From Gemmatimonadota bacterium (GTDB lineage: Bacteria > Gemmatimonadota > Gemmatimonadetes > Gemmatimonadales > GWC2-71-9), in contig JAZDCY010000014.1 of assembly GCA_036679645.1 (NCBI GenBank), positions 32,001 to 96,000 on the forward strand: a DNA stretch of 64,000 nucleotides. Reading direction: 5' to 3'. Each line of letters opens with the position of its first letter. Positions within the stretch are counted from its first letter, which is position 1. Of the stretch, positions 39,071 through 58,444 are shown in pieces. The notes under the pieces are model-generated. The model saw nothing but the letters and a program-made list of their open reading frames with translations. It made no database searches and had not been told where the DNA came from. The position numbers were made by a program, and so were the translations under genes.

Positions 39071-39113
39071 GTGTGCAGAATGCGGAACGCATAGCGGAGT
39101 CCAATACGAACAT

Positions 39114-39152
39114 CCCCCTCTCCACGAAGTGGAGAGGGGGCAGGGGGTGAGG
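39114..39152. repeat. REP-like palindromic element inside the bcr operon
   Basis: CCCCCTCTCCAC-GAA-GTGGAGAGGGGG perfect 12-bp stem plus CAGGGGGTGAGG tail. Confidence 0.7.
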
Positions 39153-39153
39153 T

Positions 39154-40455: not shown

Positions 40456-40473
40456 CGGGATCGAGGAGAGGTC

Positions 40474-41295
40474 ATGGCCTACGCCGCCGGCGTGGACGTC
40501 GGGTCCACACAAACGAAGGCCGTCATCATTGACGAGGCCCGTAACATCGTGAGCCGCGCGCTCACCGACACCGGGGCCAACGTGATTCGCGCCGCCGAAA
40601 ACGCTTTCCAGGAGTCCCTGCGCGCGGCCGACCTGCGTGAGGAAGAGGTCGAGTACGTCGTCGGCACCGGGTACGGTCGCTACAAGGTGACGTTCGGGAA
40701 CACGCAGGTGACCGAAATCAGCTGTCATGGCCGCGGCGCCGTCCACATGTTCCCCGCGACACGCACCGTCCTCGACATGGGCGGTCAGGACACGAAGGCT
40801 ATCAGCGTGTCGGATACGGGCGAGATCGTGGACTTCTGCATGAACGACAAGTGCGCCGCCGGTACGGGCCGGTTTCTCGGCGCAGCGTCGAGCGCGCTGG
40901 AGATCCCGCTGGACGAGCTGGGGCCGACGGCGCTCAACGGGGAGCGACCGGTGAAGATCAGTACCACCTGCACCGTCTTTGCCGAATCCGAGGTGCTATC
41001 GTGGCTCGGCAAGGGCAAGAAGATCGAGGACATCCTGCTCGGCGTGCACGAGTCGATCGCGACGCGGTCGGTGGGCCTCCTCAGACGGGTGGGCATCGCG
41101 AGCGAAGTGACGTTCACCGGCGGCGTCGCGCGCAACGTGGCCATGATCGACACGCTCAACCGGCGGCTGGGCATGGACGTGAATGTGAGCGAAGAGTCGC
41201 ACTACATGGGTGCACTGGGCGCCGCCCTCTTCGCCCTGGACCATATCGTGACGAGTCGCAGCCCCGCGAGCTCCGCCGCGCGGGAGACGGCATGA
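40474..41295 (+). CDS. bcrA: benzoyl-CoA reductase ATPase subunit A (short, BzdQ-sized)
   Basis: [54 protein letters not shown]. Confidence 0.8.
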
Positions 41296-42098
41296 CCCAT
41301 ACCGTCGGCATCGATGTCGGCTCGACCTACACAAAGGCCGCCGTGCTCGATGCCGATCTCCACCTCGTCGGCCGCGCCATGGCACCGACCGGATTCCGCC
41401 TAACGGAGATCGCGGAGCAGACGCTGCATGCCGCCGTGGCTGACGCTGGGCTCCGGCGTGACGAGATCGAGTACGTCGTCGCTACGGGGTTCGGCAGACA
41501 CCAGGCCACCATGAGCGACGTGCGAGTCACCGATCTGACGGCCAGCGCCAGGGGAGCGGCACACCTCTTTCCCAACACGCGAACCATCCTCGACGTCGGC
41601 GGCCAGACCATGAAAGCCAGCCGGCTGGGAGACAACGCTAAGGTCAAGTCGTTCCGCCTGAACGACAAGTGCGCGGCCGGCACCGGAGCCTTTCTCGAGA
41701 AGACCGCACGCTACATGGGCTATTCCACACAGGAAATCGGTCCCCTCGTCGCCACGTCGAAGCAGGCCGTATCGATCTCAGGCGTGTGTGCGGTATTTGC
41801 GGAATCGGAGGTCATCAACCACCTGTCCGAAGGGATGGCGCCGGCCGACATCATGCACGGGGCGATCGTATCGCTCGTGGGCCGGTCCGTGCAACTGATG
41901 AAACGGGTACGCATGGAGCCCGAGTTCACGCTGATCGGCGGCATCCTGCGGTTCGAGCGAATGGTGGACGTCGTGCGCGAGCAACTGGACGCGGACGTCA
42001 ACGTCGCCCCAGGCGATTTGGTACAGTTCACGCCGGCGTTCGGGGCGGCGCTCCTGGGCCACCGCCGCCTGGCCAAACTCAAGAGCGTCGCCGCCTGA
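41292..42098 (+). CDS. bcrD: benzoyl-CoA reductase ATPase subunit D
   Basis: [39 protein letters not shown]. Confidence 0.8.
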
Positions 42099-42100
42099 GC

Positions 42101-42412
42101 ATGCCGGCACAACCGCGTAACCCTGAGGACCTCATCAAGCCACTCGGCGCCCTTGTCGAGGGCGAGGCAAGGAGGGCCCTCTCGGAAGCGCAACTTGCAC
42201 CAGACCCGCAGCGACTCGCCGATGGATGGGAGCGGCGTTTCATCACCGACGCGCGCCGCGCGGAAGAAGTCATGGCACTGTACGAGCAACTCGGATTCGA
42301 GGTCGCCGCCGATGCAATTCGCCCGGAGGAGTTGGGCGACGAGTGCGACGATTGCCAACTGGCACTGCTCCAATTCAAGACGATCTACACCCGACCACGA
42401 CGCGCCGAATAG
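42101..42412 (+). CDS. small hypothetical protein with CxxC in the bcr operon
   Basis: GWERRF..D..R..E...LY..LGFEV...ECDDC...IYTR; fills the gap between bcrD and had. Confidence 0.7.
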   Translation: MPAQPRNPEDLIKPLGALVEGEARRALSEAQLAPDPQRLADGWERRFITDARRAEEVMALYEQLGFEVAADAIRPEELGDECDDCQLALLQFKTIYTRPRRAE

Positions 42413-42432
42413 CGGCGCGCGGGAGAACCACA

Positions 42433-43455
42433 ATGCAAGCGGCAGTCTATCACGGTCCCAACCAGCCCCTTCGGATCGAGGACGTTCCGGTCCCCACCCC
42501 CGGCGCAGGAGAGGCACTCGTCAAGGTCGCAGGCTGCGGAATGTGCCACACCGATTTGCACTACCTCGACCATGGCGTGAAGCCGTTCAAGACACCGCCG
42601 CTCATTCTCGGGCACGAGGTCGCGGGTACCATCGAGCGCCTTGGCAGCGGGACGAACGGTTGGTCCGACGGAGATCGCGTTCTCATTCCCAGCGTGTTGT
42701 CATGCGGCCGGTGCCGGTACTGCCGGCAGGGACGGGAGAACCTGTGCGATGAGCTCGTCATGCTGGGCAACAACATCGACGGAGGATACGCCGAGTTCCT
42801 CACCGTCCCGGCACGGGAGATGATACGGGTTCCCGATACGCTGCCGCTCGAGCAGGCATGTGTCGTGGCCGATGCGCTCTCGACGCCGTTTCATGCGGTG
42901 AAACACCGCGGCAAGGTACGGCCCGGCGACGTTGTCGCCGTGATGGGATGCGGCGGCGTCGGACTGAACGTCGTGCAATGCGCCGCCATGGCCGGTGGAC
43001 GCGTCATTGCCATCGATCTCAACGACGACCGTCTTGCGCTCGCCAAACAGCTCGGAGCAGCGCAGACGATTAACCCCGCGGGCATCGAGCGTCTCGACAA
43101 ACACATCAAGAAACTCACCGGCGGAGGCGTGGACATCGCGTTCGAGGCAATCGGCAATCCCGACACGATGCGCGGTGCCTATGCCCTGCTCCGCAAGGGT
43201 GGCCGACTCTGCGTGATCGGCTACGCCGCGGGCGATGTCACGCTCTCGGCCGCGCGGCTCATGTACTACGAGCTGGAGGTCGTTGGCAGCCTGGGGTGCG
43301 GTGCCGGAGAGTACCCGGAGATTATTGCCCTGGTCGAAGCCGGGCGCCTTACGCTCGAGCCGATCGTGAGCGGCTGTCTGCCTCTCGAGCAAATCGACGA
43401 AGGGTTTGATCGGCTGCGACGGGGTGAGGGTGTGCGGTGGGTGGTGACTCCTTAG
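42433..43455 (+). CDS. had: 6-hydroxycyclohex-1-ene-1-carbonyl-CoA dehydrogenase (Zn-dependent MDR)
   Basis: GCGMCHTDLHY, LGHE, CGRCRYC..C, VVADALSTPF; operon context. Confidence 0.8.
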   Translation: MQAAVYHGPNQPLRIEDVPVPTPGAGEALVKVAGCGMCHTDLHYLDHGVKPFKTPPLILGHEVAGTIERLGSGTNGWSDGDRVLIPSVLSCGRCRYCRQGRENLCDELVMLGNNIDGGYAEFLTVPAREMIRVPDTLPLEQACVVADALSTPFHAVKHRGKVRPGDVVAVMGCGGVGLNVVQCAAMAGGRVIAIDLNDDRLALAKQLGAAQTINPAGIERLDKHIKKLTGGGVDIAFEAIGNPDTMRGAYALLRKGGRLCVIGYAAGDVTLSAARLMYYELEVVGSLGCGAGEYPEIIALVEAGRLTLEPIVSGCLPLEQIDEGFDRLRRGEGVRWVVTP

Positions 43456-43506: not shown

Positions 43507-43698
43507 TCAGCCGCCCTCGGGCCGCTCCCGCACGCGCAACCCATGTGACCGCCGCCGCCTGGCAAACAGCGCGGCCACCTCGCCCAATCGCTCAATCCGC
43601 TCGAGCTTCTCACGGAAGGGAAGCGCCAGGAAGTCCTGACGCTGCCGGCGGCGGTTCCCCTCCCATGTCGCGGTGCTCCAATCGGCCCGATCAACCAT
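43507..43698 (-). CDS. small partner protein of the nucleotidyltransferase (antitoxin-like)
   Basis: MVDRADWSTATWEGNRRRQRQDFLALPFREKLERIE; overlaps the stop of the upstream gene. Confidence 0.6.
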   Translation of the reverse strand: MVDRADWSTATWEGNRRRQRQDFLALPFREKLERIERLGEVAALFARRRRSHGLRVRERPEGG

Positions 43699-44173
43699 CG
43701 CCGGCGTCCCCATGCAGCAGCCGCAGCTCCGCAACATCCGCGAGGTCCTGCGGTCGGCCCGCCTCTCGCTTGAGTCGGAGCAGGGCCTGCAACCGAACGA
43801 CGCGTACCGGGACGCCCGGGGCCACCTCCTCCACCAGCGCGCGCCGGTACTCGTCGTCGAAGTCGAACGGCTCGACGGCGAACACGTCCACCGGGGTCTC
43901 ACGGTGCCGTCCCTTTTCCGCGATCCATCGGGCCCGTACCGCAGGATCACTGAATCCCTCGGCTGTGACAGGCAGCCGCGGCTCATAACCAAGCGACTTC
44001 AGCGCCGCAAACGCCGCCCGCACGTGCTCAGGCACGAGTTTGATGACCAGGTCCAGGTCCTCCGTGAGCCGCCCGTAGCCGTGCGCGTTCACGGCGAGTC
44101 CCCCAACGACGATGTATGGGACACCGGCATCATTCAGCGCACGCGCCACGGCCTCCACGCTCGCAACCCTCAC
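43691..44173 (-). CDS. nucleotidyltransferase-family protein
   Basis: YIVVGGLAVNAHGYGRLTEDLDL, LKREAGRPQDLADV. Confidence 0.8.
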   Translation of the reverse strand: MRVASVEAVARALNDAGVPYIVVGGLAVNAHGYGRLTEDLDLVIKLVPEHVRAAFAALKSLGYEPRLPVTAEGFSDPAVRARWIAEKGRHRETPVDVFAVEPFDFDDEYRRALVEEVAPGVPVRVVRLQALLRLKREAGRPQDLADVAELRLLHGDAGDG

Positions 44174-44469
44174 CCACTCAACTCCAGCGGCGGTTCGAGG
44201 TCGCTGGTAATCTCATTTATGGTGCAACCGTGCTTGGTGTGACGTCCGGCCGTTATCAGCATCATGTCGTTCATGGCCATCCGGACACAGGGTAGCCTGA
44301 TACAACGGGGAGTCGACCCGAATGGGAAGTACTCCATGGTATGCGAGATCCACGGCACCCTTGTTGGTTCAATAATACCGAATTCTATCCCCCGCGCGCG
44401 TCAATCCAGTGAAAACGACGCCGGGCACCTTCATCGTGTCCGTCCGCCAGACGCTCAGACGCTCGATGG

Positions 44470-44539
44470 CTATCCAACAGCTATGCCCGGCCGCCAGGCG
44501 CGCGATTGGAGTGCTTGCACGTTGTGGATCACCGCGTCG
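44470..44539 (-). repeat. detached duplicate of the 3' end of the Mur-ligase-like gene (direct repeat with 51793-51862)
   Basis: 56/70 nt identical by hand alignment; DAVIHNVQALQSRAWRPGIAVG* versus DAVIHKVQALQSRGWRPGAAIG*. Confidence 0.9.
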
Positions 44540-44821
44540 AAGCACGCGTTGTGGCCCACCAGTGTTCTGAGCGCAGATTCGCCACGCCACTTGGAGATAC
44601 AAAGCAGCAACAACAGTCGCAAAGCGATGTGTCATAGTGGGGAAAAAGCGACGTGATTTCCGCCACCGGAGGATTGCCTGATCCATGAGTTCGACCGGAC
44701 TTGATAGATTCATAGATTTTTCATCGTGCCTTTAGGCCAGGCTCTCTAGACTTATGTGGGGTGCTTGGAAAGTTCGGATTGCCTTTCTGTTGCGGCTGTA
44801 GCTCCATTTGGGGGATCATCG

Positions 44822-45433
44822 ATGCCGCTCGATAGGCACCTCGCAGCTCTTGCGACGGCGGTCGCTATCGGAGCCACGAGCCTCGTAGTCGTGCTTGGCC
44901 TACAGAACCGGTCACTCGAGACTCGCTATGGCGAAGCACGGCGTCTTGCTACGGAACTGTATCCGGGATACGGCGTCCCGGAATTCGCTACTGCTACGCT
45001 GGAGGGTGACTCCGTCGTCCTCGGCGCCGCGCCAGAGTCCGTTCGCCAACTTCTCCTCGTATTTGACACAGAGTGCGACTACTGCCGCGCCACTGTACCG
45101 GCATGGAAACAAGTGCTCAGTGTCCTCGATTCTGCTTCGTATCGGCCGATCCAGGTTCTTGGCATCTCTCTCGACAGTGACAGCGCCACGCGAGTGTACC
45201 TGGAGGACCTCGAGTTCGCTCTTCCGACGGTCACGATGCGCGACCCGAAAACCCTCCAGCTGTATCGTCTTCGGTCAGTACCTCAGACGATCCTCCTGGG
45301 GCCGCGTGGATACGTCATGTTCGCGAGGACTGGCCAGCTCTCGACCCCCGAAGCGGTAGACACTCTGCTTCAAGTAATCAAGCGTGTCGCTGGTGACGTG
45401 TCTTCCACAGAAACTGCAATACGTTCGCATTAG
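44822..45433 (+). CDS. membrane-anchored thioredoxin-fold protein (TlpA/MauD-like)
   Basis: N-terminal TM; FDTECDYC; GISLD; SVPQT cis-Pro loop. Confidence 0.8.
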   Translation: MPLDRHLAALATAVAIGATSLVVVLGLQNRSLETRYGEARRLATELYPGYGVPEFATATLEGDSVVLGAAPESVRQLLLVFDTECDYCRATVPAWKQVLSVLDSASYRPIQVLGISLDSDSATRVYLEDLEFALPTVTMRDPKTLQLYRLRSVPQTILLGPRGYVMFARTGQLSTPEAVDTLLQVIKRVAGDVSSTETAIRSH

Positions 45434-45506
45434 GGCCATGGAGAACTCCGTTGATTGGGAGCCCTGAGGAACCCACAGTGGGAACCGCAAACTGAAGGAG
45501 GACTGT

Positions 45507-45743
45507 ATGTCGCGCATCACGAAGGTTGCCGCACGAGCTTGTGGTGCGGCTATTGTCGTAGGTGGACTGCTCTTTGGCACGTCCCAAGCCCTTGCAGGCT
45601 CATCAGACGGCTGCTTGTGGGACCCTCCACACCTGGGGTCATGCGCCAACCAGGTCGACTGTCAGTACAAGTGTGATCAGTACTACGGCTATGGGTACTA
45701 CGGCAGCTGCACAGCTGGCTGTTGCCACTGTATCGAGTGGTAG
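45507..45743 (+). CDS. secreted 8-Cys defensin-like (CS-alpha-beta) peptide precursor
   Basis: RBS AAGGAGG; signal peptide ending SQALA; mature GSSDGCLWDPPHLGSCANQVDCQYKCDQYYGYGYYGSCTAGCCHCIEW. Confidence 0.85.
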   Translation: MSRITKVAARACGAAIVVGGLLFGTSQALAGSSDGCLWDPPHLGSCANQVDCQYKCDQYYGYGYYGSCTAGCCHCIEW

Positions 45744-47173
45744 CCCAGCGTGCCCGGCGGGGTGAGGCTCCCACACCTCGCCGGCCCTCAGGCTCGGGAC
45801 CGTCAAAGGACGTCTGGAACAGGCGGACGCTACGTTTCCCGACCATAACGCCTCATTTTCGCGCGCGCCCCGGGTTCCGAGGTGCGGCCGTGTTGTTACC
45901 GGTGCTTCTTGCGGCGTGCCAGCAGGAGACGATTCTCTTGCCGGGTCGTGGGGCCGCACCTCGGGATTCCTCTGCGATTGATACAAGCGGCACGACAACG
46001 GACACAACGGTAGTCCAGCGCGTGGGACTCGTACTGGCCGTTCGAGTTGGCGGCGAAGATTCAGTGCTCGCGAATGCCCTAGGATGGCAGACCAACGCGA
46101 TTCCCGGCGCTGAAGTTACAGTGCAGCGATCAGGTTCATCGATCCGGCAGACCGATCGAACTGGATTGGATGGGTCGGTAGAATTCCCTGCGCTGTTGCC
46201 CGGCGAGTACCGGGTCTCGGCCATCCGAATTCTGACGCCCAGCGAATCATCCTTGCTGGGTCCTGGGAACGAGGATGTCGACGCCTTTGGGGGGAGTACA
46301 AGTCTCATACTCGAACCGCCTGCGGCCGAGGACACCCTCGTCATCGGTGCTGGTCGCCGTGGCTCACTCGTAATCAGCGAATGGTCTTTCTATATCGCGA
46401 TCATCAACGGGACGCCCTATGAGTTCGGCGGTTTTCTGGAACTCTACAATAACTCAGACAGGACCGTGTACCTCGACGGGAAGCTGTTCGGGGCCGGGTT
46501 TTCGGCGGCGTTTGAAAGCCCCGTCGAGCCCTGCAGCACTTGGGCCACGTACCGGAATGATCCACAAGGTGTCTGGACCGAGACAGTCTTTCGCTTTCCG
46601 GGCTCAGGCCAGGACTACCCCGTAGCGCCAGGGCAGACGATAGTGATGGCGACGGACGCGATTGACCACGGTCAACTTGTCACCGGCGGACTGAACCTTC
46701 GCAATGCACAATTTGAGTTTCTCGGTAGCGGCGATGTCGATAATCCCACCGCCGCGAACATGATTGACGTGGGTCCGCGCCCCTTCACGCTCTTCGCCCA
46801 CGGGTTCTTCTTCTTCACGACTGCGGCGCTTCCCTTTCTCGCTGACGCCGTTGACCTCAGTACCCTCCCGACAGCAAGGCTTTTCGCAAGCGGAAGAGAG
46901 TACGTCCGCATACCAGCCAACAAACTACTGGACGTTGCAGCCTTGCGTTACTTCGGACCGAGCCTCGGGCCAGCGTGTCCGGAAATGGTCCATGCCAGTA
47001 TCGACGGCGCAGCGTTTCTCATGCCAGAGGACAATCCGGGCGGGGCCCGTTCGGTGCAGCGACGCGTCATCGGTAGCTTCGCGACTGGTCGTCAGGTTCT
47101 GCTACGTACCCGTACCAGTGCTCGCGATTTCGACTATCGCGTTCGCACCCCTGGTAGCCTACCCAGGCCCTGA
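45722..47173 (+). CDS. DUF4876-like lipoprotein (true start probably ~45845-45890)
   Basis: Lipobox LAAC; LVISE, FLELYNNSDRTVYLDG, FPGSGQDYPVAPG, ATDAIDH, C-terminal RTS..DF. Confidence 0.7.
   Translation: MPLYRVVAQRARRGEAPTPRRPSGSGPSKDVWNRRTLRFPTITPHFRARPGFRGAAVLLPVLLAACQQETILLPGRGAAPRDSSAIDTSGTTTDTTVVQRVGLVLAVRVGGEDSVLANALGWQTNAIPGAEVTVQRSGSSIRQTDRTGLDGSVEFPALLPGEYRVSAIRILTPSESSLLGPGNEDVDAFGGSTSLILEPPAAEDTLVIGAGRRGSLVISEWSFYIAIINGTPYEFGGFLELYNNSDRTVYLDGKLFGAGFSAAFESPVEPCSTWATYRNDPQGVWTETVFRFPGSGQDYPVAPGQTIVMATDAIDHGQLVTGGLNLRNAQFEFLGSGDVDNPTAANMIDVGPRPFTLFAHGFFFFTTAALPFLADAVDLSTLPTARLFASGREYVRIPANKLLDVAALRYFGPSLGPACPEMVHASIDGAAFLMPEDNPGGARSVQRRVIGSFATGRQVLLRTRTSARDFDYRVRTPGSLPRP
45753..45785 (+). 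terminator. GC hairpin immediately after the peptide gene (no U tract)
   Basis: CCGGCGGGGTG...CACCTCGCCGG 11-bp stem with one G-U. Confidence 0.5.
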
Positions 47174-47201
47174 TCGAACGGGCCACTGGAAGATCCCTGA
47201 C

Positions 47202-50039
47202 ATGTGCGGCCGTCGCGCAGTCCTCCCGTTCGTCCTCCTGCTGGGGGGAACCATGCACGGCACGCTTGTCTCGCAGGAGCAAGTGGTAGGTCCTCTGATC
47301 AGGGGACGGGTGACCGACCATGTGTCGGCGCTTCCCATCGCGGGAGCGATTGTGGCACTTGAGGGGAGCGGATTCAGTGCTATGACCGACACGGCTGGCA
47401 ACTACAACTTGATCAACTTGCGACCCGGACCGGCCATCCTGCTCGTTCGGATGATCGGATACGCCCCTGCCAGAGTACCGCTCGTTGTTCCACCGTCCGG
47501 CATTCTCCATCGCAACATCGCGCTGGCACGAAATGCCCTTGAACTCGCCGAGATCATCGTGACCGCTGATCCGGCCGGCCGCGCGCGCGGCGAATTGGGA
47601 ACAGCAAGTGTCATTGAACACGACGCCATCGTGAACCAGACGGCGGCGAGCATCGCTGGTATTCTCGAGCTAGTCCCCGGCATACCGCTCGCGGCTCCGG
47701 GCCTCGAGGAAGTGCAGCAGATCCAGCTCCGCACCGCCCCGGTGTCTAGCGGGGGAATAACGGCCGGCCCCAGTGGCGCCGATATCGCAGCGTTCGGCAC
47801 CACTATCATCCTCGACGGAGTTCCGCTGTCAAACAACGCCAACCTACAGAACACCGGACCGCGAGGTGAACTGCGGCCCCCTAGCTCCTCCGGGGGCGGC
47901 ATCGATCTTCGGCGCATTCCGGCATCAACTATCGAGCGCGTGGAGGTCATTCGGGGTGTGCCCTCCGCCCGCTACGGCGATCTGACTCACGGCGTGATCG
48001 TCGTCGATACGCGCGCGGGGCGAGTGTCGCCGGCAGCTACCGTCCGGTACGATGCGCGGACGACTGAAGCCAGCCTCGTCGGGGGATGGCGTTTGACCCC
48101 TGATCACACTGCCACCGCCCACTTCGACGTGGCCCGTACGAGGAAGAACCCCGGTATCACTGACGCCGATGTCCTACGCCTGACGGGACAACTGGCCCAC
48201 CGGGCGGCATTCGGGTTGCAACAGGACCAGCCCGCGACCCGTGCGCAGTTGGAGTTCGACACACGACTCGATTTCTTCCGGGTGGTCGAGGACAATCCGG
48301 AGCAGCCAGACGTTCTCCCTGGTTTCGCGACGCGCGCGAGCGACTTTGGCTTTCGGCTGTCCGAACGTGCCCGATTCCATCCGTCCCCGAACTCTGCCTT
48401 CGTGCTAACGCTGGCAATGGACCACACTCGACAGCGGTCATTTGTCCAGTCGTTCCGCCTCCGAGGAGCGCTCCCGTTCACTGATCGCCTCGAGGAAGGT
48501 CTGGCGATTGGCCGCTACGTGGGGGGCGAGTACTTGTCGCGCGTCGATCTCGAGGGAGATCCGTGGCTTGTTTATGGGCGTGGTGAGTGGGTGGGCGCGC
48601 CACGCGGTCTGGGAGGCCTGGACCATCTGTTGCGCGCGGGGTTCGAATTGCGGCGGGAGTGGAACGAGGGTGCAGGCTACCAATTCGACATCGAGTTCCC
48701 CCCCCAAGTTCGGTTCAACGGAGTACAGGGCTTTGACCGGCCAAGGCGATTCGACGCGGTGCCGCCTCTCGCGACCAGCGCCCTGTACCTGACGGACAGG
48801 ATCTCCGGGCAGCCGCTTCTTGGCATGCCCCTCCAAGTTCAGGTCGGTGCTCGCGTGGATGTTCTCCACCGTGGGACGACCTGGATCTCGGGGTACCGTG
48901 ATCTCGTCTGGCAGCCGCGCATGAACGTAGAGCTGGGGCCTCGTTGGTGGCTCCGCATCCGGGCGGGCGTCGGGAAAACGGCGAAATACCCGTCGCTTGG
49001 AAGCCTCTTCCCTCCCCCCCAATACTTCGACGTCGTCAACGTGAACTGGTTCGTGACCGATCCCGCCGAGCGTCTTGCTGTCTTGACCACGTCCATCAGC
49101 GATCCAACCAATCCAGATCTCGGACTCTCCGCCACCTGGAAGCGCGAGGTGGGCGCCGAAATGTCGCTCGGCCGGCGGGGCGGTTCTATCGCAGTCGTCC
49201 TCTTCGACGACCGAACAACAGGGGCAGTGGGGTTTCGCTCAGTCACTGGTTTCCTCACACGTGCTCGCTACGCCCTGTCCGATTCCTCCGAAGGCACCGG
49301 CGTACCCCCAACCATCATCCAACCACCGGCGTACACGGACACGGTTCCCATTCTGATCGACGAACCCACCAACAACTTGACGGTATCCAGTAAGGGCTGG
49401 GAGGTGTCCGCCAGCCTCCCGGAGATTCCCAAAACCCAAACCCGGCTTGACATCCAGGCGGCATTCATCGAGACAAGGGTCTCCCGCACGGATGTGGTTT
49501 TTGGATCCGGCACTCGGTTCTCCGAGTTTCAACTGAACGGCGCAGTTCCGCGAGCCCCATACTGGGAGGGCGCGACCGGTACCGGTCAGCGACTGACGGC
49601 CACGTTCCGCCTGGTTCACCACCAACCGCTCCTCGGCTTGGTCATCACCGGCACTATGCAGTTCATCCTGCGCGAGTCGAGACGCGACATAGGGGGAACC
49701 GATACGTTGTCTTTTGCCGGCTACGTCACGCGTGCCGGTGAGTTGGTTCCCGTCCCGACGAGTGACCGAACAGCACCCCAGTTCGCAGATCTTCGCCAAC
49801 CCCGTGGCGGCCTGCTGATCGAGCCGCGAGGCACGCCTGATGACTGGCTACTCAGTCTTCAGGTATCCAAAACGCTTCCACTGGGAGGTCGGTTTTCATT
49901 CTACGCGTTTAACGCTCTTGACCGCGAGGGCAGGTTTGCGCGTGCAGGGACCACACCGCGACCGTTTCCCAGGATGCGCTTCGGCCTCGACATCGCCATG
50001 CCGTTGCGCTCGGTTCTCGGTGCCTGGATGGATCCGTGA
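47202..50039 (+). CDS. TonB-dependent receptor with N-terminal carboxypeptidase-regulatory-like domain
   Basis: IRGRVTD...IGY; LELVPG; LDGVPLSNNANLQ; DLRRIPASTIERVEVIRGVPSARYGDLT plug motif. Confidence 0.9.
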   Translation: MCGRRAVLPFVLLLGGTMHGTLVSQEQVVGPLIRGRVTDHVSALPIAGAIVALEGSGFSAMTDTAGNYNLINLRPGPAILLVRMIGYAPARVPLVVPPSGILHRNIALARNALELAEIIVTADPAGRARGELGTASVIEHDAIVNQTAASIAGILELVPGIPLAAPGLEEVQQIQLRTAPVSSGGITAGPSGADIAAFGTTIILDGVPLSNNANLQNTGPRGELRPPSSSGGGIDLRRIPASTIERVEVIRGVPSARYGDLTHGVIVVDTRAGRVSPAATVRYDARTTEASLVGGWRLTPDHTATAHFDVARTRKNPGITDADVLRLTGQLAHRAAFGLQQDQPATRAQLEFDTRLDFFRVVEDNPEQPDVLPGFATRASDFGFRLSERARFHPSPNSAFVLTLAMDHTRQRSFVQSFRLRGALPFTDRLEEGLAIGRYVGGEYLSRVDLEGDPWLVYGRGEWVGAPRGLGGLDHLLRAGFELRREWNEGAGYQFDIEFPPQVRFNGVQGFDRPRRFDAVPPLATSALYLTDRISGQPLLGMPLQVQVGARVDVLHRGTTWISGYRDLVWQPRMNVELGPRWWLRIRAGVGKTAKYPSLGSLFPPPQYFDVVNVNWFVTDPAERLAVLTTSISDPTNPDLGLSATWKREVGAEMSLGRRGGSIAVVLFDDRTTGAVGFRSVTGFLTRARYALSDSSEGTGVPPTIIQPPAYTDTVPILIDEPTNNLTVSSKGWEVSASLPEIPKTQTRLDIQAAFIETRVSRTDVVFGSGTRFSEFQLNGAVPRAPYWEGATGTGQRLTATFRLVHHQPLLGLVITGTMQFILRESRRDIGGTDTLSFAGYVTRAGELVPVPTSDRTAPQFADLRQPRGGLLIEPRGTPDDWLLSLQVSKTLPLGGRFSFYAFNALDREGRFARAGTTPRPFPRMRFGLDIAMPLRSVLGAWMDP

Positions 50040-51601
50040 CGCGCTTCGTCACCGTCGTCTTGTGGCTAGCCACAATGCAGTCGCTGCAGGCTCAAGAGTG
50101 GACTGACGTCTGGAGCCCCTTCCGCCCGCTCTCGGACGTACCGCGGCATGGACCTCAACCGCCACACATAGCGGTGCCGCTGCTTTTTGGACCCGCCCGG
50201 GTAGGGGAACTGTGGACCGCCGGCAACCCCGCCGGGGCCGCCTGGGACGTACGTGACGCACACACGTCATTTCTCTTGAGCTATGGTCGGGAGGATGGCG
50301 CGTTCCGGCGGCCCCTCGATCCAGAGGCGGTCAACAATCCTCGCCTGGCGGCGGTCGCTTGGAGGCCGGTGCGGAGCAACATCGCCGCCGTCGGTCGCCT
50401 CACCCTAGAGCAGCAACGGCACCGGCCCGGATCCAATGCGGCGGTGGCGTTTCCGTACGGGACGAGCCCACTCGTGCCCACCGACAGCTCATCGCCGCCT
50501 ACAACCCTGACCAGAGCCCGTCTGGAGGGGCTCGTTGCGTGGCGGTTCGACCAGTGGAGCTTCGGCCTCTCGTTGGGATACGAATCCTGGGACAACCGCA
50601 CCCGGGAAACACCAGTCCCGCGCATCGGTCGTCGCGTCGCACCGGCCGGCGCCTTCGGAATCGTTCGTGCAATAGGCAGGCTGTTTCTCCTGGGCCTGCA
50701 TGTGCGCGGACGACGTACCGTGGAAACCGTGACGATCAACCCGCTGGCCGGCACCAGTACCGTCCACGAACTTGATGGCTTCAGCGACCCCGAACCAATT
50801 CCCGTCATTGCCCTTCGATACCGCCGTCGGATCACCACGGATGAAAGGGCAGCAGGGACCTCCGCGACCGGTTCGTTGGGGCTAGTCCACTGGACAGCCT
50901 ACGGGCGCAAGGAGTGGCGAGACCAGTGGCACAGCAGCCTGGAGCAGGAGAATCCTCCCGTGGACGCTTGGCGCGCGTCAGGTATCACGCTCGGTGGCGC
51001 ACTCCAGTACGTAGCTTCCAATCGAATCCCGATGATCACTGTGCACGCGTCTCGAACCTCCATCAGCGGTCACGCTGAGCGCGCCGACCTTGACGGTACG
51101 ATCTTCCGCGCGAGCGAGCGCGTGACACGCGCCGGAATCGAACTCCGCTCGGATGACACCACCGCGACCTGGGCTGGTGCCATCGGGCTCACCATTACGC
51201 ACGAGTCCCGGTTCCGGGAGGATTTCCTGGTACAACACATCGCCGATCTAAGTGAATGGACGCCGGGTGCGACCGTCGAGATAGTGCATCGCTTCGAGAC
51301 CGGGACCAGCATGGCGGTCGCAGGCTCACTCGGGTGGCACTCGGCCGTTTCTCGCATTCCGGACCCTGCCACGCTGGGCCCAATCTATCAGCAGCTCATT
51401 GCGCCCGAACTGGCGCTCTATGCGCAACGTGCCTATCCGTGGCTGGTGCGGATATCCGTGCGTCAGCGTCTGAGTACGCACACGTCACTTCTGGTCTCGG
51501 CGTCCCATCGCGTTCTTCGGCCGGCGTCTACTTCGGCAGTCCCGGCAGCCCCTGGCGGCTTGCGCAGATCATGGCATTTCCTCGCTGGACTCGTGCTCTA
51601 G
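50036..51601 (+). CDS. outer-membrane beta-barrel (DUF6850-like)
   Basis: Signal peptide; NPAG; GAFRRPLDP; amphipathic strands; ATGA-type overlap with the receptor gene. Confidence 0.6.
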   Translation: MTRFVTVVLWLATMQSLQAQEWTDVWSPFRPLSDVPRHGPQPPHIAVPLLFGPARVGELWTAGNPAGAAWDVRDAHTSFLLSYGREDGAFRRPLDPEAVNNPRLAAVAWRPVRSNIAAVGRLTLEQQRHRPGSNAAVAFPYGTSPLVPTDSSSPPTTLTRARLEGLVAWRFDQWSFGLSLGYESWDNRTRETPVPRIGRRVAPAGAFGIVRAIGRLFLLGLHVRGRRTVETVTINPLAGTSTVHELDGFSDPEPIPVIALRYRRRITTDERAAGTSATGSLGLVHWTAYGRKEWRDQWHSSLEQENPPVDAWRASGITLGGALQYVASNRIPMITVHASRTSISGHAERADLDGTIFRASERVTRAGIELRSDDTTATWAGAIGLTITHESRFREDFLVQHIADLSEWTPGATVEIVHRFETGTSMAVAGSLGWHSAVSRIPDPATLGPIYQQLIAPELALYAQRAYPWLVRISVRQRLSTHTSLLVSASHRVLRPASTSAVPAAPGGLRRSWHFLAGLVL

Positions 51602-51792
51602 GGTAACTCCCATGCGGGTATCGTCGTGCCGCCCCGCGACTTCCGTCCGCGAAGCGCGGGGCTGGACGTAACCGCGGATCGTGGCCATGACCGGGTTCTA
51701 CGCGTTCGACCTCAACGGCAACCGGCTCTGGGACGTGCATATGGGCGCCGGGGAAGAGCCGTGGTTTGCGGGGCCGCCCAGGCGCTCCGGGG

Positions 51793-53496
51793 TTACCCGA
51801 TAGCTGCACCTGGGCGCCAGCCGCGCGACTGGAGTGCCTGCACCTTGTGAATCACCGCGTCGCGCGCGGCGTGTATTGGGAGCACGATCAAGTCACCCTC
51901 CCGGGCCCACGCCAGCGCCTCGCGCAGGGCCCCCAACTCGTCGTCAACCCGTGCCACGCTTTCCTCGGCGACACCGAGTTTGTCCAGCTCGTCCGCGATG
52001 ATTGCCGCCACCTCCCCTTCCGGTCTGCCACGCAGGTAGGTCCGCATCTCCTTGATGATCACGCGATGGGGTGCGAACGTGATCGCCGCGCGCACGAGAT
52101 CACGAATGTCGTCGTCGCTCCGGTCGCCTGCCTGGCCGATTACCACGAGCCGACGTTTGGCGGGCATCGCTTGGACCATCTCGCCTACCGCTCGCATACC
52201 GTGCGGGTTGTGCGCGAAATCCAGAAAGACCCGCACTCCACCCAGATCGAACAGATGCCCTCGGCCGGGGTTCGCGTCCGGTGTACTCGCGAAGTGGTGG
52301 ATCGCCGCGCGAATGGCCGCTGATGACACACCAATGGCGCGCGCGACGGGAATGGCACCGAGAATGTTGGAGGTATTGAATTGCGCCGCACCACCGAAGG
52401 TGATCGGCGCATCGGCAACCGCACCGTAGTCTTCGGTAACCCCGCAGGTACGAAACGCAAAACGCCCATCCGCCACGAACGCGGCGTCGTCATCCGGCAT
52501 CGTATCGGTCATGCCGAACCACACGTGTGCGGCGACCTCGACATCACGAGCGCGGCGCATGACCACCGGATCGTCCGCGTTCGCCACGAGTACCCCACTC
52601 GCCCGCACGGCATGTGCGATCACGAGCTTCGCCCGGGCGATATCGTCGACGGTGGTCACGCCAAACTCACCCAGATGATCCGAGGCGACGTTGGTGAGCA
52701 GCGCGGCGTCCGCACGTTCCACCATCAAGCCTCGGCGGAGCAGCCCGCCACGGGCGGTTTCCAGCACGGCGACCTCCACGCGTCGGTCGCGCAAGATTGC
52801 GCGCGCCCCTCCCGGACCGGACCAGTCACCGGCATCGATCCGATCTCGACCGACGTAGAGCCCATCCGTATTGCTGCAACCCGCGACCTGGCCGTCTTGC
52901 GCGATCATCGCCGCAAGCAACCGTACGGTCGTGGTCTTCCCGTTGGAGCCCGTGACGAGCGCCACCCGCACGTCGTGAATCCCGTTCCAGTCCACCGCTG
53001 ACGGTGCCGGCAGGACGTGCGTGGGCCACGTCAGTGAGCCCACGCCCATCCCAACCGACACTTGATCGTCATCCCACAAGAACGCCACCCCATGGGCGCG
53101 CGCCGCTTCCCGGAGCGCGAGCATCGCAGGGTTCCGCTCAGCGGCAATGGTCGCCTGCAACCGCGGCGCAACGACCTCGAGCGGCGACGGCGACGCTCCA
53201 CCAAAGTCGGCGCAGGTGGCGGCCCAGGCCCACTCGTTCACCTCTGTCGCCGCGTAAAGCGCGTCGATGGGCACCGTGAGCACGAGACTCGCACCTCCCG
53301 GAAACGTCCGAACGGCTGTGCGCTGGTCCTTCCACCCAACCGCGTCGAGGGCGTCTCTCGCGTGCACCTTCCAGCGCGCGATGACGGCATCTCCGTCGAC
53401 GCCGGCGATATGAACGTCGAGCACCGCGCCAGCGACACTGGTCTGGAGATTGGGACCGGTCAGTCGGCGCGAGTCACGCTGTTCGAGCGTCGGCAC
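51793..53496 (-). CDS. CphA-related Mur-ligase protein lacking the ATP-grasp domain
   Basis: DSRRLTGPNL N-terminus; VTGSNGKTTT, LETARGGLLRRG, NVASDHLG, DFAHNPHG, GQAGDR. Confidence 0.85.
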   Translation of the reverse strand: MPTLEQRDSRRLTGPNLQTSVAGAVLDVHIAGVDGDAVIARWKVHARDALDAVGWKDQRTAVRTFPGGASLVLTVPIDALYAATEVNEWAWAATCADFGGASPSPLEVVAPRLQATIAAERNPAMLALREAARAHGVAFLWDDDQVSVGMGVGSLTWPTHVLPAPSAVDWNGIHDVRVALVTGSNGKTTTVRLLAAMIAQDGQVAGCSNTDGLYVGRDRIDAGDWSGPGGARAILRDRRVEVAVLETARGGLLRRGLMVERADAALLTNVASDHLGEFGVTTVDDIARAKLVIAHAVRASGVLVANADDPVVMRRARDVEVAAHVWFGMTDTMPDDDAAFVADGRFAFRTCGVTEDYGAVADAPITFGGAAQFNTSNILGAIPVARAIGVSSAAIRAAIHHFASTPDANPGRGHLFDLGGVRVFLDFAHNPHGMRAVGEMVQAMPAKRRLVVIGQAGDRSDDDIRDLVRAAITFAPHRVIIKEMRTYLRGRPEGEVAAIIADELDKLGVAEESVARVDDELGALREALAWAREGDLIVLPIHAARDAVIHKVQALQSRGWRPGAAIG

Positions 53497-53498
53497 CC

Positions 53499-56285
53499 TC
53501 AGTCTTCGGTATCGCGGGCTAGGCGCACGCCGCGCTCGTCCCGGATGACCTCCTGGCCGGCATCGATATCGATCGTCGGTAGGTCCGGCAGCTCCGGTGC
53601 TGGCCGCTTCGCGACCTCGCACCCGTCGCGCGTCGTTCCATCACTCGTGTAGTTCACCACCTGCTTCCAGGTCCGCCCAATCTGATCGGCGAAGAGCACG
53701 AGCAGATCGTCCGGCCGCGCGGCCTCGAGAGCCGCCGCCACGGCGGCCCGTTCCTCCGGGATGGTCTCGACCGCGTCCGTGGCAACACCATTGTCGATGA
53801 GGGCACGCTGCAGCATGCGGGGTACCTCATCCCCGTCTCGCCCGCGCAGGGCATCGTCGCGCCGGCAGATGTAGTGGTCGAACGCGCCCGCCGCGATCGT
53901 TCCCATTTCGATGATATCCTCGTCCCGCCGGTCGCCGGGAGCGGCTAGCACGCATAGCCGCCGGCCGACCACGTCCAAGCGGCCCACGAGATCGCACATG
54001 ACCTGAATTGCGTGGGGGTTGTGCGCGTAGTCTACGATCACCTTGAACGGCAACTCGTTGTATACGTTGAGCCGGCCCGGTGCCTGAAAGTAAGTGGAGT
54101 CGAAGGTACGGAGCCCGTGTCGGACATCTTCGAGCTTGAGACCAGCGCTGTACGCCATGGCCGCCGCGAACATGGCGTTCTGCACGTTGTGGATGGCTTT
54201 GCCCTCGATCGTCGCCGGGATGAGATGGGTCCACAGCAACGGCAAGTGCGCGCCCTTGTCGTAGAACGTGATCATGTGCCCGCTGATCGCCTGCTCGAGC
54301 ACCACCGCTCGCCCACCCGCCTGGATGTGCTCGCGGACGAGCGCGTGCTGCGGGTTCATCGTTACGTAGCAGACGTGTTCCGCATCGGAATAGTCCGCCA
54401 TCTTGAGACACAACGGGTCGTCGGCATTGAGCACGGCGGTGTTCTTCGCAATCTCGATGACCACCCGCTTCACCTCGGCCAGTTGCTCGAGCGTATCGAT
54501 ACCGCGTAGGCCAAGGTGATCGGCCTGCACGTTGAGACACGCGCTCACGTCGCTGCGGCGGTACCCCATGCCGGCGCGCAGCAGTCCACCCCGTGCCGTC
54601 TCGAGCACCGCGACCTCCACCGACGGGTCACGCAAGACCATACGCGCCGCCACTGGACCGGTCATGTCGCCTTCGACCGTCCGCTGCCCGTCGATGTACA
54701 CGCCGTCCGTCGTGGCCACGCCGACGGTGTGTCCTGCCATCTTGTAGATGTGGGCCAGCATCCGCGTCGTCGTCGTCTTGCCGTTGGTACCGGTGATTGC
54801 GAGGATGGGAATGCGGGCCGGTGTACCGGGCGGGAAGAGCATGTCCATGACCGGTCCTGCGACATCACGGGGTATCCCCTCACTCGGCTGGACGTGCATG
54901 CGGAATCCGGGAGCCGCGTTCACCTCGCAGATTGCACCGCCGATGTCCTTGTAGGACTTGGTAATGTCCGACGTGAGGAAATCCACGCCAGCCACGTCCA
55001 GGCCAATCGCCTGCGCCGCACGGACGGCCATCTCACGGTTATCCGGGTGAAGCACGTCGGTCTGATCGACCGCGGTCCCACCGGTTGATAAGTTGCCCGT
55101 CGATCGGAGGTAGACCACTTCGCCTTTGGGCAGCACGGTCTCGGACGTGTACCCCAGCAATCCGAGCAGCCGGTTAGCCTGGTAATCGAATTCGATCCGC
55201 GTCAACACCTTCTCGTGTCCGATCCCGCGTCGCGGATCGGCATTCACCTCGTCGACCAACTCCGCGATCGTGTGTACCCCATCCCCAACGACGTGCCCGG
55301 GGACACGTTTCGCCACGGCGACGAGATCACCGTTCACGACCAGCATTCTATGATCGAAGCCCGCAATGTACGACTCGATCAAGACACCGCGTGAATGCTC
55401 CCGCGCCTGGGAAAACGCCGCACGCACGTGGTCGCGGTCACCAATGTTGATCGAAACACCGCGACCGTGGTTCGCGTTCAACGGTTTGACCACTACCGGA
55501 TAGCCCATGCGTTCCGCTGCCCGCAGTGCGTCCTCTTCGGAGTAGACGAGTCGCTGCTTGGGAACGGGAAGACCAAGATCGCCGAGGATACGATTGGTCT
55601 CGTCCTTGTCGGACGAGATCTCGACCGCGATATGCGGTGTTCTACTGGTGACGGTGGCTTGGATGCGCTGCTGATAGCGACCGTGTCCGAATTGGACGAG
55701 GCTGTACTGGTTCAGCCGCAGCATGGGGATGTCGCGTTCGCGCGCCGCGCGGACGAGTGCCGCCGTTGAGGGTCCCAGGGCATGGCGCTGCGTATACCGG
55801 ATGAACGCATCGCGCTCAGTCGCGAAATCATAGTCATCGGCGACGGCACCCGCGGGCTGCAGTTCCCGCGGGAGAAGCGAATGGAGGAGATTCAGTCCCA
55901 CGCGACCGGCCTCGAGACCGACCCGTGCCTCCTCGTACTCGTACACGACGTTGTACCGTCCCGGCGCACCGGTCGTCCGCGTCCGACCAAAGGTGACTTG
56001 CTCACCGGCGGCATTCTGCAACTCGAGCGCCGTGTGTTCCAGCACGTGCCCGAGCCACGTACCTTCATCCTCCCGCAACCGCCGTACGAACCCACCGGGC
56101 TCACCGTACGAGCACCCGTGTTCGCCGAGACCCGGGAGCGCCTCCAACAACCCATCGATGAACGCGTTGCCCAGGCGCACGCTGGGCCACTCCTCGAGCG
56201 TGCCCAGGTCGAGCACGAACCGAATCACGGGGAAGTGCGCGTAGAGATTCGGGCCCAGGTAGACGGAGCGTTCGACGATGTCCAT
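53499..56285 (-). CDS. cphA: cyanophycin synthetase
   Basis: GPNLY, HGCS, GTWLGHVLEH, LGPST, KPLNANHGRG, NLSTGG, EVNAAPGFRMH, TGTNGKTT, DYAHN. Confidence 0.97.
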   Translation of the reverse strand: MDIVERSVYLGPNLYAHFPVIRFVLDLGTLEEWPSVRLGNAFIDGLLEALPGLGEHGCSYGEPGGFVRRLREDEGTWLGHVLEHTALELQNAAGEQVTFGRTRTTGAPGRYNVVYEYEEARVGLEAGRVGLNLLHSLLPRELQPAGAVADDYDFATERDAFIRYTQRHALGPSTAALVRAARERDIPMLRLNQYSLVQFGHGRYQQRIQATVTSRTPHIAVEISSDKDETNRILGDLGLPVPKQRLVYSEEDALRAAERMGYPVVVKPLNANHGRGVSINIGDRDHVRAAFSQAREHSRGVLIESYIAGFDHRMLVVNGDLVAVAKRVPGHVVGDGVHTIAELVDEVNADPRRGIGHEKVLTRIEFDYQANRLLGLLGYTSETVLPKGEVVYLRSTGNLSTGGTAVDQTDVLHPDNREMAVRAAQAIGLDVAGVDFLTSDITKSYKDIGGAICEVNAAPGFRMHVQPSEGIPRDVAGPVMDMLFPPGTPARIPILAITGTNGKTTTTRMLAHIYKMAGHTVGVATTDGVYIDGQRTVEGDMTGPVAARMVLRDPSVEVAVLETARGGLLRAGMGYRRSDVSACLNVQADHLGLRGIDTLEQLAEVKRVVIEIAKNTAVLNADDPLCLKMADYSDAEHVCYVTMNPQHALVREHIQAGGRAVVLEQAISGHMITFYDKGAHLPLLWTHLIPATIEGKAIHNVQNAMFAAAMAYSAGLKLEDVRHGLRTFDSTYFQAPGRLNVYNELPFKVIVDYAHNPHAIQVMCDLVGRLDVVGRRLCVLAAPGDRRDEDIIEMGTIAAGAFDHYICRRDDALRGRDGDEVPRMLQRALIDNGVATDAVETIPEERAAVAAALEAARPDDLLVLFADQIGRTWKQVVNYTSDGTTRDGCEVAKRPAPELPDLPTIDIDAGQEVIRDERGVRLARDTED

Positions 56286-56289
56286 GGGA

Positions 56290-58310: not shown

Positions 58311-58444
58311 GAGATAGAGAGGCAAATCTAGACACCACACGCTCCCAAAGGGAGAGCGACCGTGCCGCGCGCCGATGCTGCCGGTGGACCGCGTTGGCCC
58401 TGTGAGGGTATTCTCCGTCTCCCGAGCCGGATGCCGGAGGCCTC

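What the first reader, a model, noticed from the sequence alone, without database searches (positions are those of the whole stretch)
44822..51601. Candidate undescribed system: thiol-disulfide oxidoreductase + defensin-like peptide + lipoprotein + TonB-dependent receptor + OM barrel
Seen: five co-oriented envelope-targeted genes, with the receptor and barrel genes overlapping at their stop/start. From recall of families, not a search: a DUF4876 lipoprotein / TBDR / DUF6850 triad of unknown function occurs in Bacteroidota. Inference: the CDYC thioredoxin folds the 8-Cys peptide in the periplasm and the lipoprotein-TBDR-barrel module exports, displays or re-imports it, giving a disulfide-only ribosomal peptide system (peptide metallophore or signal) that could supply the unknown substrate of the triad. 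No ABC exporter, tailoring enzyme or immunity gene is visible.
Basis: partly seen in the sequence, partly recalled or inferred. Interest (0 to 1): 0.85.

Follow-up and report, generated by a model that had tools for sequence, protein, structure and literature searches.

The report
Defensin-fold peptide with matching TonB importer
Gemmatimonadota bacteria carry a recurring five-gene cassette in which a small, negatively charged peptide, predicted to be secreted and defensin-shaped, and its likely folding enzyme sit beside a predicted outer-membrane import machine that likely recaptures the peptide as a private scavenger, which would give a widespread transporter family of unknown substrate its first candidate cargo.

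Summary
The five genes are real, and DUF4876 and DUF6850 pass Pfam cut-offs. The cassette is an insertion, and this genome has five such loci with six intact peptides. In 401 phylum genomes, peptide and DUF6850 barrel were each found in 20 and together in 13 (about 1 expected by chance). Of 82 distinct mature peptides, 72 have 8 Cys, Cys are lost in pairs, and all 82 are net anionic. The model is a cysteine-stabilised alpha/beta (defensin/scorpion-toxin) fold. The system has two modules: thioredoxin plus peptide, and lid(s) plus TonB transporter plus barrel. Peptide-lid units duplicate in tandem, and lids never number fewer than peptides. Either module can stand alone: three genomes have peptide without triad, five have triad without peptide, and Bacteroidota triads lack the peptide. 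Best reading (0.35): a secreted disulfide-locked ligand recaptured through its lid and transporter as a private, probably metal, scavenger. Rivals are toxin-immunity, identity signal and export/display. Lid-specific co-evolution, positive selection, Fur boxes and conserved metal ligands were looked for and not found. No description turned up in the literature searches.

The parts
44452..44589 (-). Degenerate second copy of the 3' end of the cyanophycin-synthetase-like gene; left scar of the insertion
   Evidence: 88-nt direct repeat, 78% identical to 51775-51862; 39 codons, 61.5% identical to that protein's C-terminus
44822..45433 (+). Membrane-anchored thioredoxin-fold protein (CDYC, V-P loop); likely dedicated disulfide oxidase/isomerase of the peptide
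   Evidence: Pfam AhpC-TSA 26.1/26; ResA, StoA and MauD all far below cut-off; 37 of 45 homologues have Tyr, Phe or Ile before the second Cys
45496..45501 (+). Ribosome-binding site (AGGAGG) of the peptide gene
   Evidence: Sequence; SD-like 4-mer upstream of 73 of 81 homologous peptide genes, no shuffled control
45507..45743 (+). Peptide precursor: about 30-aa signal-peptide-like leader plus 48-aa anionic mature part with 8 Cys (type B, ends in CC-x-C); predicted CS-alpha/beta fold
   Evidence: AlphaFold pLDDT 81.1; fold neighbours
45744..45798 (+). Stem-loop directly after the peptide stop, no U-tract; would let peptide mRNA exceed downstream mRNA
   Evidence: z -2.75; z below -2 after 27 of 81 peptide genes against 6 of 79 control stretches
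45722..47173 (+). DUF4876 lipoprotein, predicted transporter lid (Ig-like domain plus DUF4876 domain; conserved Cys pair); ORF open from 45722, true start uncertain, lipobox Cys at 45917
   Evidence: Pfam DUF4876 30.6/27.9; family profile hits PDB 4q1z at E 2.9e-28
47202..50039 (+). Non-SusC TonB-dependent transporter (carboxypeptidase-regulatory-like domain, plug, barrel)
   Evidence: Pfam Plug and CarbopepD_reg_2 over cut-off; SusC/RagA model 59.3 bits against cut-off 368
50036..51601 (+). DUF6850 outer-membrane beta-barrel, about 18 long strands with a 55-residue N-terminal segment; net basic strands
   Evidence: Pfam 42.4/27; AlphaFold pLDDT 94.4; strand net charge +20; only generic barrel matches
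51775..51862 (.). Right copy of the direct repeat; spans the stop of the cyanophycin-synthetase-like gene (51793-53622, minus strand)
   Evidence: a sister species has no cassette at this site

Best explanation
The cassette likely makes a secreted, disulfide-locked, anionic mini-protein and likely recaptures it through a matching DUF4876 lid and TonB-dependent transporter, so that it would work as a private scavenger, most likely of a metal such as iron. Shown by sequence and survey: five genes, their recurring linkage, a family of over 100 peptides with fixed Cys scaffold and negative charge, tandem peptide-lid units, and cassette mobility. Predicted: Sec export, CS-alpha/beta fold, barrel fold. 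Inferred, step by step: (1) the anchored thioredoxin sets the four disulfides in the periplasm; (2) the peptide leaves through the basic DUF6850 barrel or a general route; (3) the lid next to each peptide gene selects it; (4) the transporter pulls it back with its payload; (5) extra lids, and lid arrays in genomes without a peptide, pirate other strains' peptides. Steps 2-5 and the payload are untested.
For: Linkage: 13 of 401 genomes hold both peptide and DUF6850, against about 1 expected. Of the 13 peptide-positive genomes that gave no sequence to the profile, 10 have a triad. A lid is the gene next to the peptide's 3' end in 84 of 104 peptides (8 at contig ends). Tandem repeats copy peptide plus lid (often with thioredoxin) while one transporter and barrel serve them (L002, L024, L034, L040, L074). 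Lids equal or outnumber peptides in all 31 well-flanked rows (some rows repeat a locus). All 44 lids from type-B loci fall in one clade without a type-A lid; the A/B switch needs 1 change on the lid tree, against 2, 3 and 4 for thioredoxin, transporter and barrel. Near-complete genomes G411, G274 and G122 keep 2-3 lids per triad with no peptide of this family, which fits a receiver better than an exporter. No sensor, exporter or protease recurs beside the cassette, so it must work with five genes, as a scavenger can. Related Bacteroidota DUF4876 loci rise 20-214-fold (PG1019-22) and 38-128-fold (BT3625-33) in iron depletion (PMC10434189, passages). One triad sits beside an M16 peptidase and feoB, like the Fus systems that import a small iron protein (PMC6793856, abstract).
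Against: Beyond the four invariant Cys no column is invariant, so there is no conserved His/Asp/Glu metal site. No Fur-like box or other palindrome is enriched in 102 upstream regions. No inner-membrane metal transporter or reductase recurs. Three genomes 95-99% complete (G141, G265, G136) have thioredoxin plus peptide but no lid or barrel match, and a scavenger without a receptor is hard to explain. Lids are acidic (median -3.7 per 100 aa), not complementary to the peptide. Peptide distance follows the lid no better than the rest of the cassette (partial r -0.005, p 0.54; transporter 0.13, p 0.037), and no lid segment tracks the peptide (permutation p 0.69, 22 pairs). There is no positive selection. 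The basic barrel strands also occur in a peptide-less triad (+22) and weakly in Bacteroidota (+3 to +6).
Confidence: 0.35

Rival explanations
1. Polymorphic toxin-immunity system: the peptide would be a receptor-targeted bacteriocin that enters related cells through their triad, and each lid would be the surface immunity protein that traps its own peptide.
For: Defensin/scorpion-toxin fold. Lids equal or outnumber peptides, with orphan lids. Producers lacking a triad would be immune by lacking the receptor. The cassette is mobile and multicopy. Multi-copy defensin-like bacteriocins exist in Actinomyces (PMC6989792, passages).
Against: 0 of 82 mature peptides are net positive and Lys is 0.6%. 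Most producers keep the would-be entry transporter in the same cassette. DUF4876 is predicted to be a transporter lid in Bacteroides (bioRxiv 2023.03.17.533168). No positive selection.
Confidence: 0.22
2. Strain-identity signal: the peptide would be a coded ligand read by its lid and transporter, reporting the density of kin that carry the same cassette.
For: Fixed scaffold with variable surface (mean non-Cys identity 16% across 31 loci). Receivers outnumber signals, and receiver-only genomes exist. An ECF sigma/anti-sigma pair lies beside 8 and 7 loci, mostly of one close group, and an AraC-type regulator beside another. A plant receptor-bound defensin-like ligand is among the fold neighbours (5gyy, Z 2.9).
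Against: No sensor or regulator is conserved across cassettes. Pfam shows a carboxypeptidase-regulatory-like N-terminal domain on the transporter and no signalling (STN) domain.
Confidence: 0.2
3. Export or display: the triad would secrete the folded peptide, or the peptide would stay bound to its lid as a variable subunit filling the lid's side opening and setting substrate specificity.
For: No other exporter in the cassette. Basic barrel strands in 45 of 46 homologues face an anionic cargo. A TonB-dependent transporter can secrete a protein (PMC6434023, abstract). DUF4876 lids leave an opening of about 20 A (bioRxiv 2023.03.17.533168). Peptide and lid duplicate together.
Against: Triads with several lids persist without peptide, and intact peptides, in G265 three copies, persist without any triad.
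Confidence: 0.15
4. Two unrelated modules travel together on one mobile island; thioredoxin plus peptide act independently of the triad.
For: Each module occurs alone. Sequence co-variation does not exceed shared inheritance.
Against: Peptide-lid adjacency survives inversions and reshuffling in both orientations (51 same strand, 33 convergent), and lids duplicate with peptides while transporter and barrel do not.
Confidence: 0.08

Closest known systems
DUF4876-lidded non-SusC TonB-dependent transporters of Bacteroidota (BT1939/BT1938, BT3633/BT3632, PG1019-22; Price, Deutschbauer and Arkin, bioRxiv 2023.03.17.533168)
   Same: DUF4876 lipoprotein beside a homologous transporter (22-24% identity); DUF6850 barrel annotated in three of three annotated Bacteroidota loci; substrate unknown.
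   Different: The four Bacteroidota loci examined have no thioredoxin and no such peptide. The Gemmatimonadota clade (45-57% transporter identity) adds a self-encoded peptide, a dedicated thioredoxin and lid arrays.
Bacterial cis-defensins, especially class III with a fourth C1-C6 bond (Cardoso et al. 2024, PMC11561630)
   Same: Signal peptide, CxxxC helix, GxC and terminal CxC; the window's type B implies a C1-C6 fourth bond.
   Different: That survey lists Proteobacteria, Acidobacteria and Actinobacteria; its main text has 0 hits for Gemmatimon, TonB or thioredoxin. This family also has type A (fourth bond into a CxxCC helix) and is uniformly anionic.
Actifensin-type defensin-like bacteriocins (PMC6989792)
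   Same: Small disulfide peptides with variable sequence, several copies per genome.
   Different: Actifensins have a GA-type leader and ABC transporters. Here the leader is Sec-like, no ABC transporter recurs, and the neighbours are outer-membrane import parts.
Protease-associated import systems Fus and YddB/PqqL (PMC6793856)
   Same: A TonB-dependent transporter thought to import a whole small protein.
   Different: Cargo there is host ferredoxin, and a periplasmic M16 protease is defining. No protease recurs here, and the candidate cargo is self-made.
Self-made ligand plus TonB receptor systems: methanobactin, HasA hemophore, pyoverdine (recalled, no call)
   Same: Logic of secrete, bind and recapture, with receptor piracy by non-producers.
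   Different: No tailoring enzymes, no type I exporter, no known chelating group; specificity would lie in a duplicated lipoprotein lid, not in the transporter.

Membership tests
DUF4876-lidded TonB transporter triad | Lipoprotein with DUF4876 above the Pfam cut-off | tested here: met
   30.6 bits against 27.9; lipobox Cys aligned in five paralogues; PDB 4q1z hit
DUF4876-lidded TonB transporter triad | Adjacent non-SusC TonB-dependent transporter and DUF6850 barrel | tested here: met
   Plug over cut-off, SusC model 59.3 against 368, DUF6850 42.4 against 27
DUF4876-lidded TonB transporter triad | Lid binds the outer face of the transporter | not tested
cis-defensin (CS-alpha/beta) fold | CxxxC helix motif and terminal CxC | tested here: met
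   The four invariant columns of 74 aligned peptides are these Cys
cis-defensin (CS-alpha/beta) fold | Helix packed on a two- to three-strand sheet | tested here: met
   Model E12-15, H19-30, E34-39, E42-47, pLDDT 81; best matches 6ay7 (Z 4.3, rmsd 2.3, 37 aligned) and 2gl1 (Z 3.5, rmsd 2.4, 38); scores low, no Foldseek hit at E <= 0.001
cis-defensin (CS-alpha/beta) fold | Disulfide connectivity | tested here: inconclusive
   Paired Cys losses fit C2-C5 and C1-partner bonds; not measured
Class III bacterial defensins (PMC11561630) | Fourth bond C1-C6 and class loop lengths | tested here: inconclusive
   C1-C6 inferred for type B only; class III sequences were not compared
Cationic antimicrobial defensins and actifensin-type bacteriocins | Net positive mature peptide | tested here: not met
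   0 of 82 positive, median -5
Cationic antimicrobial defensins and actifensin-type bacteriocins | ABC exporter in the cluster | tested here: not met
   No recurring ABC transporter among neighbour clusters seen in three or more loci
Protease-associated import (Fus, YddB/PqqL) | Periplasmic M16 protease in the cluster | tested here: not met
   None in the window region and none recurring among neighbours
Protease-associated import (Fus, YddB/PqqL) | Transporter of the FusA/YddB family | tested here: inconclusive
   A four-sequence profile found only 9gbc (N-terminal part) in PDB at E <= 1e-10
SusC/SusD and the Capnocytophaga iron capture system | SusC/RagA transporter with SusD/RagB lipoprotein | tested here: not met
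   ICS homologues are annotated SusC/RagA and RagB in PMC5429918
ResA, StoA, MauD or DsbE oxidoreductases | NCBIfam equivalog or subfamily cut-off | tested here: not met
   25.9/170, 22.1/210, 21.1/188.6, 16.4/123; thioredoxin fold and CxxC are present
Peptide metallophore | Metal binding and metal-regulated expression | not testable with these tools
   No conserved non-Cys ligand; no Fur-like box

The most novel reading that the evidence does not exclude
A polymorphic lock-and-key system of a new kind: bacteria make defensin-fold mini-proteins as strain-coded cargo, each paired with its own interchangeable lipoprotein lid on a shared TonB transporter. Cells collect lids to read, steal or neutralise other strains' peptides, and the DUF6850 barrel is the peptide's exit pore.
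Probability: 0.35. Interest if true: 0.9.

Novelty: new variant of a known kind. Interest (0 to 1): 0.76.

Why it matters
DUF4876/DUF6850 triads are widespread, are induced by iron starvation in gut and oral Bacteroidota, and have no known substrate; DUF6850 had no paper in the library searched. Here a candidate cargo is encoded next door, in over 100 natural variants with neighbouring lids, so binding, transport direction and the job of the second barrel become testable with small synthetic peptides. It also adds a large, uniformly anionic bacterial family of the defensin/scorpion-toxin fold in a phylum missing from the bacterial defensin survey read, with two alternative fourth disulfides and a dedicated oxidoreductase. 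That points to a non-antimicrobial use of the fold in bacteria.

Tried and rejected
The profile search of 1.84 billion representatives with the peptide alignment was queued but never finished, so the range outside Gemmatimonadota is untested; a word-indexed search gave 49 unnamed relatives. Recalled idea that the triad is the Capnocytophaga iron capture system: rejected, since its homologues are SusC/RagB type; the original paper was not read. Positive selection on the mature peptide: not found (omega 0.30 without Cys, signal 0.31). Lid-specific co-evolution: not found. Charge complementarity with the lid: not found. Fur box or conserved palindrome: not found; only the sigma-70 -35 word was enriched. 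Natural peptide-lid fusion in L023: it reads as a deletion product in a decaying, IS-interrupted locus, so it was not used. Pfam and NCBIfam gave no family for the window's peptide (one paralogue hit big defensin at E 0.01). ESM Atlas best score 0.78, a lead only. DUF6850 fold: generic barrels only, best Z 18.3, rmsd 4.8, 278 aligned (FhaC), no family assignment. Viral contigs: no relative of the transporter. Sequencing runs: no RNA holder listed. Promoter and terminator scan: nothing above chance in the cassette. Earlier findings: none for this transporter sequence or for all the words together.
Full report
OBSERVATION. The five co-oriented genes are present as described. Pfam confirms DUF4876 (30.6 bits, cut-off 27.9), DUF6850 (42.4, cut-off 27), a TonB plug, and a marginal AhpC-TSA for the CDYC protein. 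The transporter is far below the SusC cut-off, and the thioredoxin is below every named NCBIfam family. The peptide has no family hit. It has an AGGAGG site and a stem-loop after its stop (z -2.75). The host is inferred to be Gemmatimonadota: 33 of 34 related genome loci are so labelled, and the one exception is nearly identical to a Gemmatimonadales locus.

THE CASSETTE IS AN INSERTION. An 88-nt, 78% identical repeat flanks it, and the left copy is a decayed duplicate of the last 39 codons of the cyanophycin-synthetase-like gene on the right. In sister species G002 that gene is followed by one short ORF and then the dehydrogenase gene seen left of the cassette in the window (matched by eye), with no cassette gene between. 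The genome has four more loci (contigs C8, C19, C24, C97). A genome-wide filter passed 10 ORFs, of which 6 are intact family peptides, all beside a thioredoxin and a lid; a seventh is broken. The window's lid groups with lids of other genomes, not with the four other lids of this genome that entered the tree, so it likely arrived separately.

LINKAGE. Of 34 genome loci found with the transporter, 22 hold a peptide. Seven of the other 12 end within 300 bases of a cassette gene, and 5 are well flanked without an intact peptide. These loci are not independent (three come from one genome, two are near-copies), and the peptide profile was built largely from them. A second test used one sample of 401 phylum genomes. 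DUF6850 was found in 20, the peptide in 20 (with only 14 candidates scored per genome), and both in 13, against about 1 by chance (p 6e-15 ignoring kinship). Seven of the 13 had supplied sequences to the profile. Among the 13 peptide-positive genomes that had not, 10 have a triad (one with only a decayed peptide) and 3 (G141, G265, G136; 95-99% complete) have no lid or barrel match. Conversely, G411, G274 and G122 have close-type triads with 2-3 lids and no peptide, and G166 and G325 have divergent triads without one. Four Bacteroidota triads have neither thioredoxin nor peptide. For 104 distinct peptides, the upstream neighbour is a same-strand thioredoxin in 63 (10 at contig ends), and the downstream neighbour is a lid in 84: 51 same strand, 33 convergent, 8 at contig ends. 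The metagenome loci were found with a lid query, which inflates the lid figure. Tandem arrays repeat peptide and lid, often with thioredoxin, around one transporter and barrel, and lids equal or outnumber peptides in 31 of 31 well-flanked rows (some rows repeat a locus).

THE PEPTIDE. Of 82 distinct mature peptides, 72 have 8 Cys, 8 have 6, and one each has 7 and 9. Four Cys are invariant (CxxxC and terminal CxC). The fourth pair has two forms: type A (CxxCC, 44) and type B (CC-x-C, 34, including the window). Six-Cys forms lose Cys in pairs: four lack the first Cys and its partner, and four lack the second Cys and the GxC Cys. That is the pattern expected of disulfides in a CS-alpha/beta fold rather than of free metal-binding thiols (inference). 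AlphaFold gives strand-helix-strand-strand at pLDDT 81. The neighbours are mostly scorpion-toxin-type and plant-defensin peptides at low scores (best Z 4.3; no Foldseek hit at E <= 0.001). All 82 are net negative (K+R-D-E, median -5, range -12 to -1). No non-Cys position is fixed. Twenty close pairs show purifying selection, omega 0.30 for non-Cys mature codons.

THE PARTNERS. The thioredoxin stays with the peptide even where the triad is missing, and it is absent from the well-flanked peptide-less triads, so it likely serves peptide maturation rather than import. Whether it oxidises or isomerises is not known. The lid family matches PDB 4q1z and is acidic. All 44 lids from type-B loci lie in one 54-row clade (SH-aLRT 96, quick tree) with no type-A lid. 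On 30 complete loci the A/B label needs 1 change on the lid tree, 2 on thioredoxin, 3 on transporter and 4 on barrel (FastTree; 6 of 37 loci dropped as incomplete, one six-Cys locus unlabelled). However, partial correlations give the lid no special tie to the peptide, and no lid segment tracks it in 22 pairs. Pairing is therefore supported by gene arrangement, not by residue-level co-evolution. DUF6850 models as a barrel of about 18 long strands at pLDDT 94 with no close solved relative. Its strands are net basic in 45 of 46 homologues, but also in a peptide-less triad. Clustering 1728 neighbouring ORFs found a lipoprotein family in 9 loci (a similar protein hit a TolB-like six-blade propeller model) and an ECF sigma/anti-sigma pair in 8 and 7 loci; no exporter, protease, reductase or tailoring enzyme recurred.

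MECHANISM. The system reads as a producer module and a receiver module. Import is preferred to export because multi-lid triads persist without cargo, and because homologous triads are induced by iron starvation (PMC10434189) and can sit by an M16 peptidase and feoB. Among import readings, a scavenger is preferred because the mobile cassette carries no conserved sensor and keeps the transporter in most producers. The case is thin: there is no conserved metal ligand, no Fur-like box, no binding evidence, and three producers have no receiver. Odds: scavenger 0.35, toxin-immunity 0.22, signal 0.20, export or lid subunit 0.15, hitch-hiking 0.08.

LITERATURE. Searches: DUF4876, 5 papers; DUF6850, 0; bacterial defensin terms, 7; Gemmatimonadota with peptide, defensin and TonB terms, 50, of which 20 were listed and none describes this by title or abstract start; secreted disulfide peptide with TonB receptor, lipoprotein and oxidoreductase, 0. 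Read: bioRxiv 2023.03.17.533168, parts 1-2 of 3 (its table is an image and its supplements are closed); PMC11561630, part 1 of 7 plus passages (accession tables S2-S6 not read, and the Dash et al. survey it cites not read, so a listed member cannot be excluded); passages of PMC10434189, PMC5429918 and PMC6989792; abstract of PMC6793856; listing and abstract start of PMC6434023. Methanobactin, HasA and pyoverdine are recalled. Most subscription papers are outside the library.

VERDICT. This is a real, recurring and apparently undescribed system. The triad is a member of a known but uncharacterised kind; the peptide family, its dedicated thioredoxin and the peptide-lid arrays are new. Function is inferred only.

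Noticed in passing
window 37892-43455 (+): Four genes that look like benzoyl-CoA reductase or 2-hydroxyacyl-CoA dehydratase subunits with two activators, then a zinc alcohol dehydrogenase; labels recalled from the translations, not scanned.
   Followed up: no
window 51793-58340 (-): Cyanophycin-type cluster: a 609-aa synthetase-like protein (324.8 bits, below cut-off), a 928-aa synthetase, and cyanophycinase-like and isoaspartyl-dipeptidase-like genes (last three recalled).
   Followed up: partly
window 43507-44173 (-) and 51688-51779: A DUF2204-type nucleotidyltransferase has a near-copy on contig C49, which also carries 92 bases 92% identical to the cassette's right edge; possible shared mobile remnant.
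   Followed up: partly
L003:795-1136 (G000 C24): Seventh peptide gene of this genome, broken after its first cysteines; on C97 the barrel match is in two pieces.
   Followed up: partly
L023:5700-9800: Decaying cassette: the peptide's leader and first Cys are fused to a lid, and a transposase interrupts another lid.
   Followed up: yes
L028:9945-10127, L050:4652-4957, L235:4202-4441, L154:289-504, L223:3681-3941: Other small signal-bearing Cys-rich ORFs of different Cys patterns; the first four lie within 2-7 kb of triads, three of them triads without a family peptide. They might be alternative cargo.
   Followed up: no
L149:3765-10810: Divergent peptide-less triad (transporter 34% identical) directly beside a CobW/COG0523 GTPase, a hint of zinc-related use.
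   Followed up: partly
L213:8600-11200 (G265): Three peptides and two thioredoxins in tandem with no triad in a 99% complete genome, downstream of large envelope genes without Pfam hits for the ones scanned.
   Followed up: partly
L025:8703-20234: Lid-transporter-barrel repeated twice with identical match scores; a very recent duplication or an assembly artefact.
   Followed up: no
L029 versus L030: A bin labelled Candidatus Binatia carries a cassette almost identical to that of a Gemmatimonadales bin; likely mis-binning.
   Followed up: no
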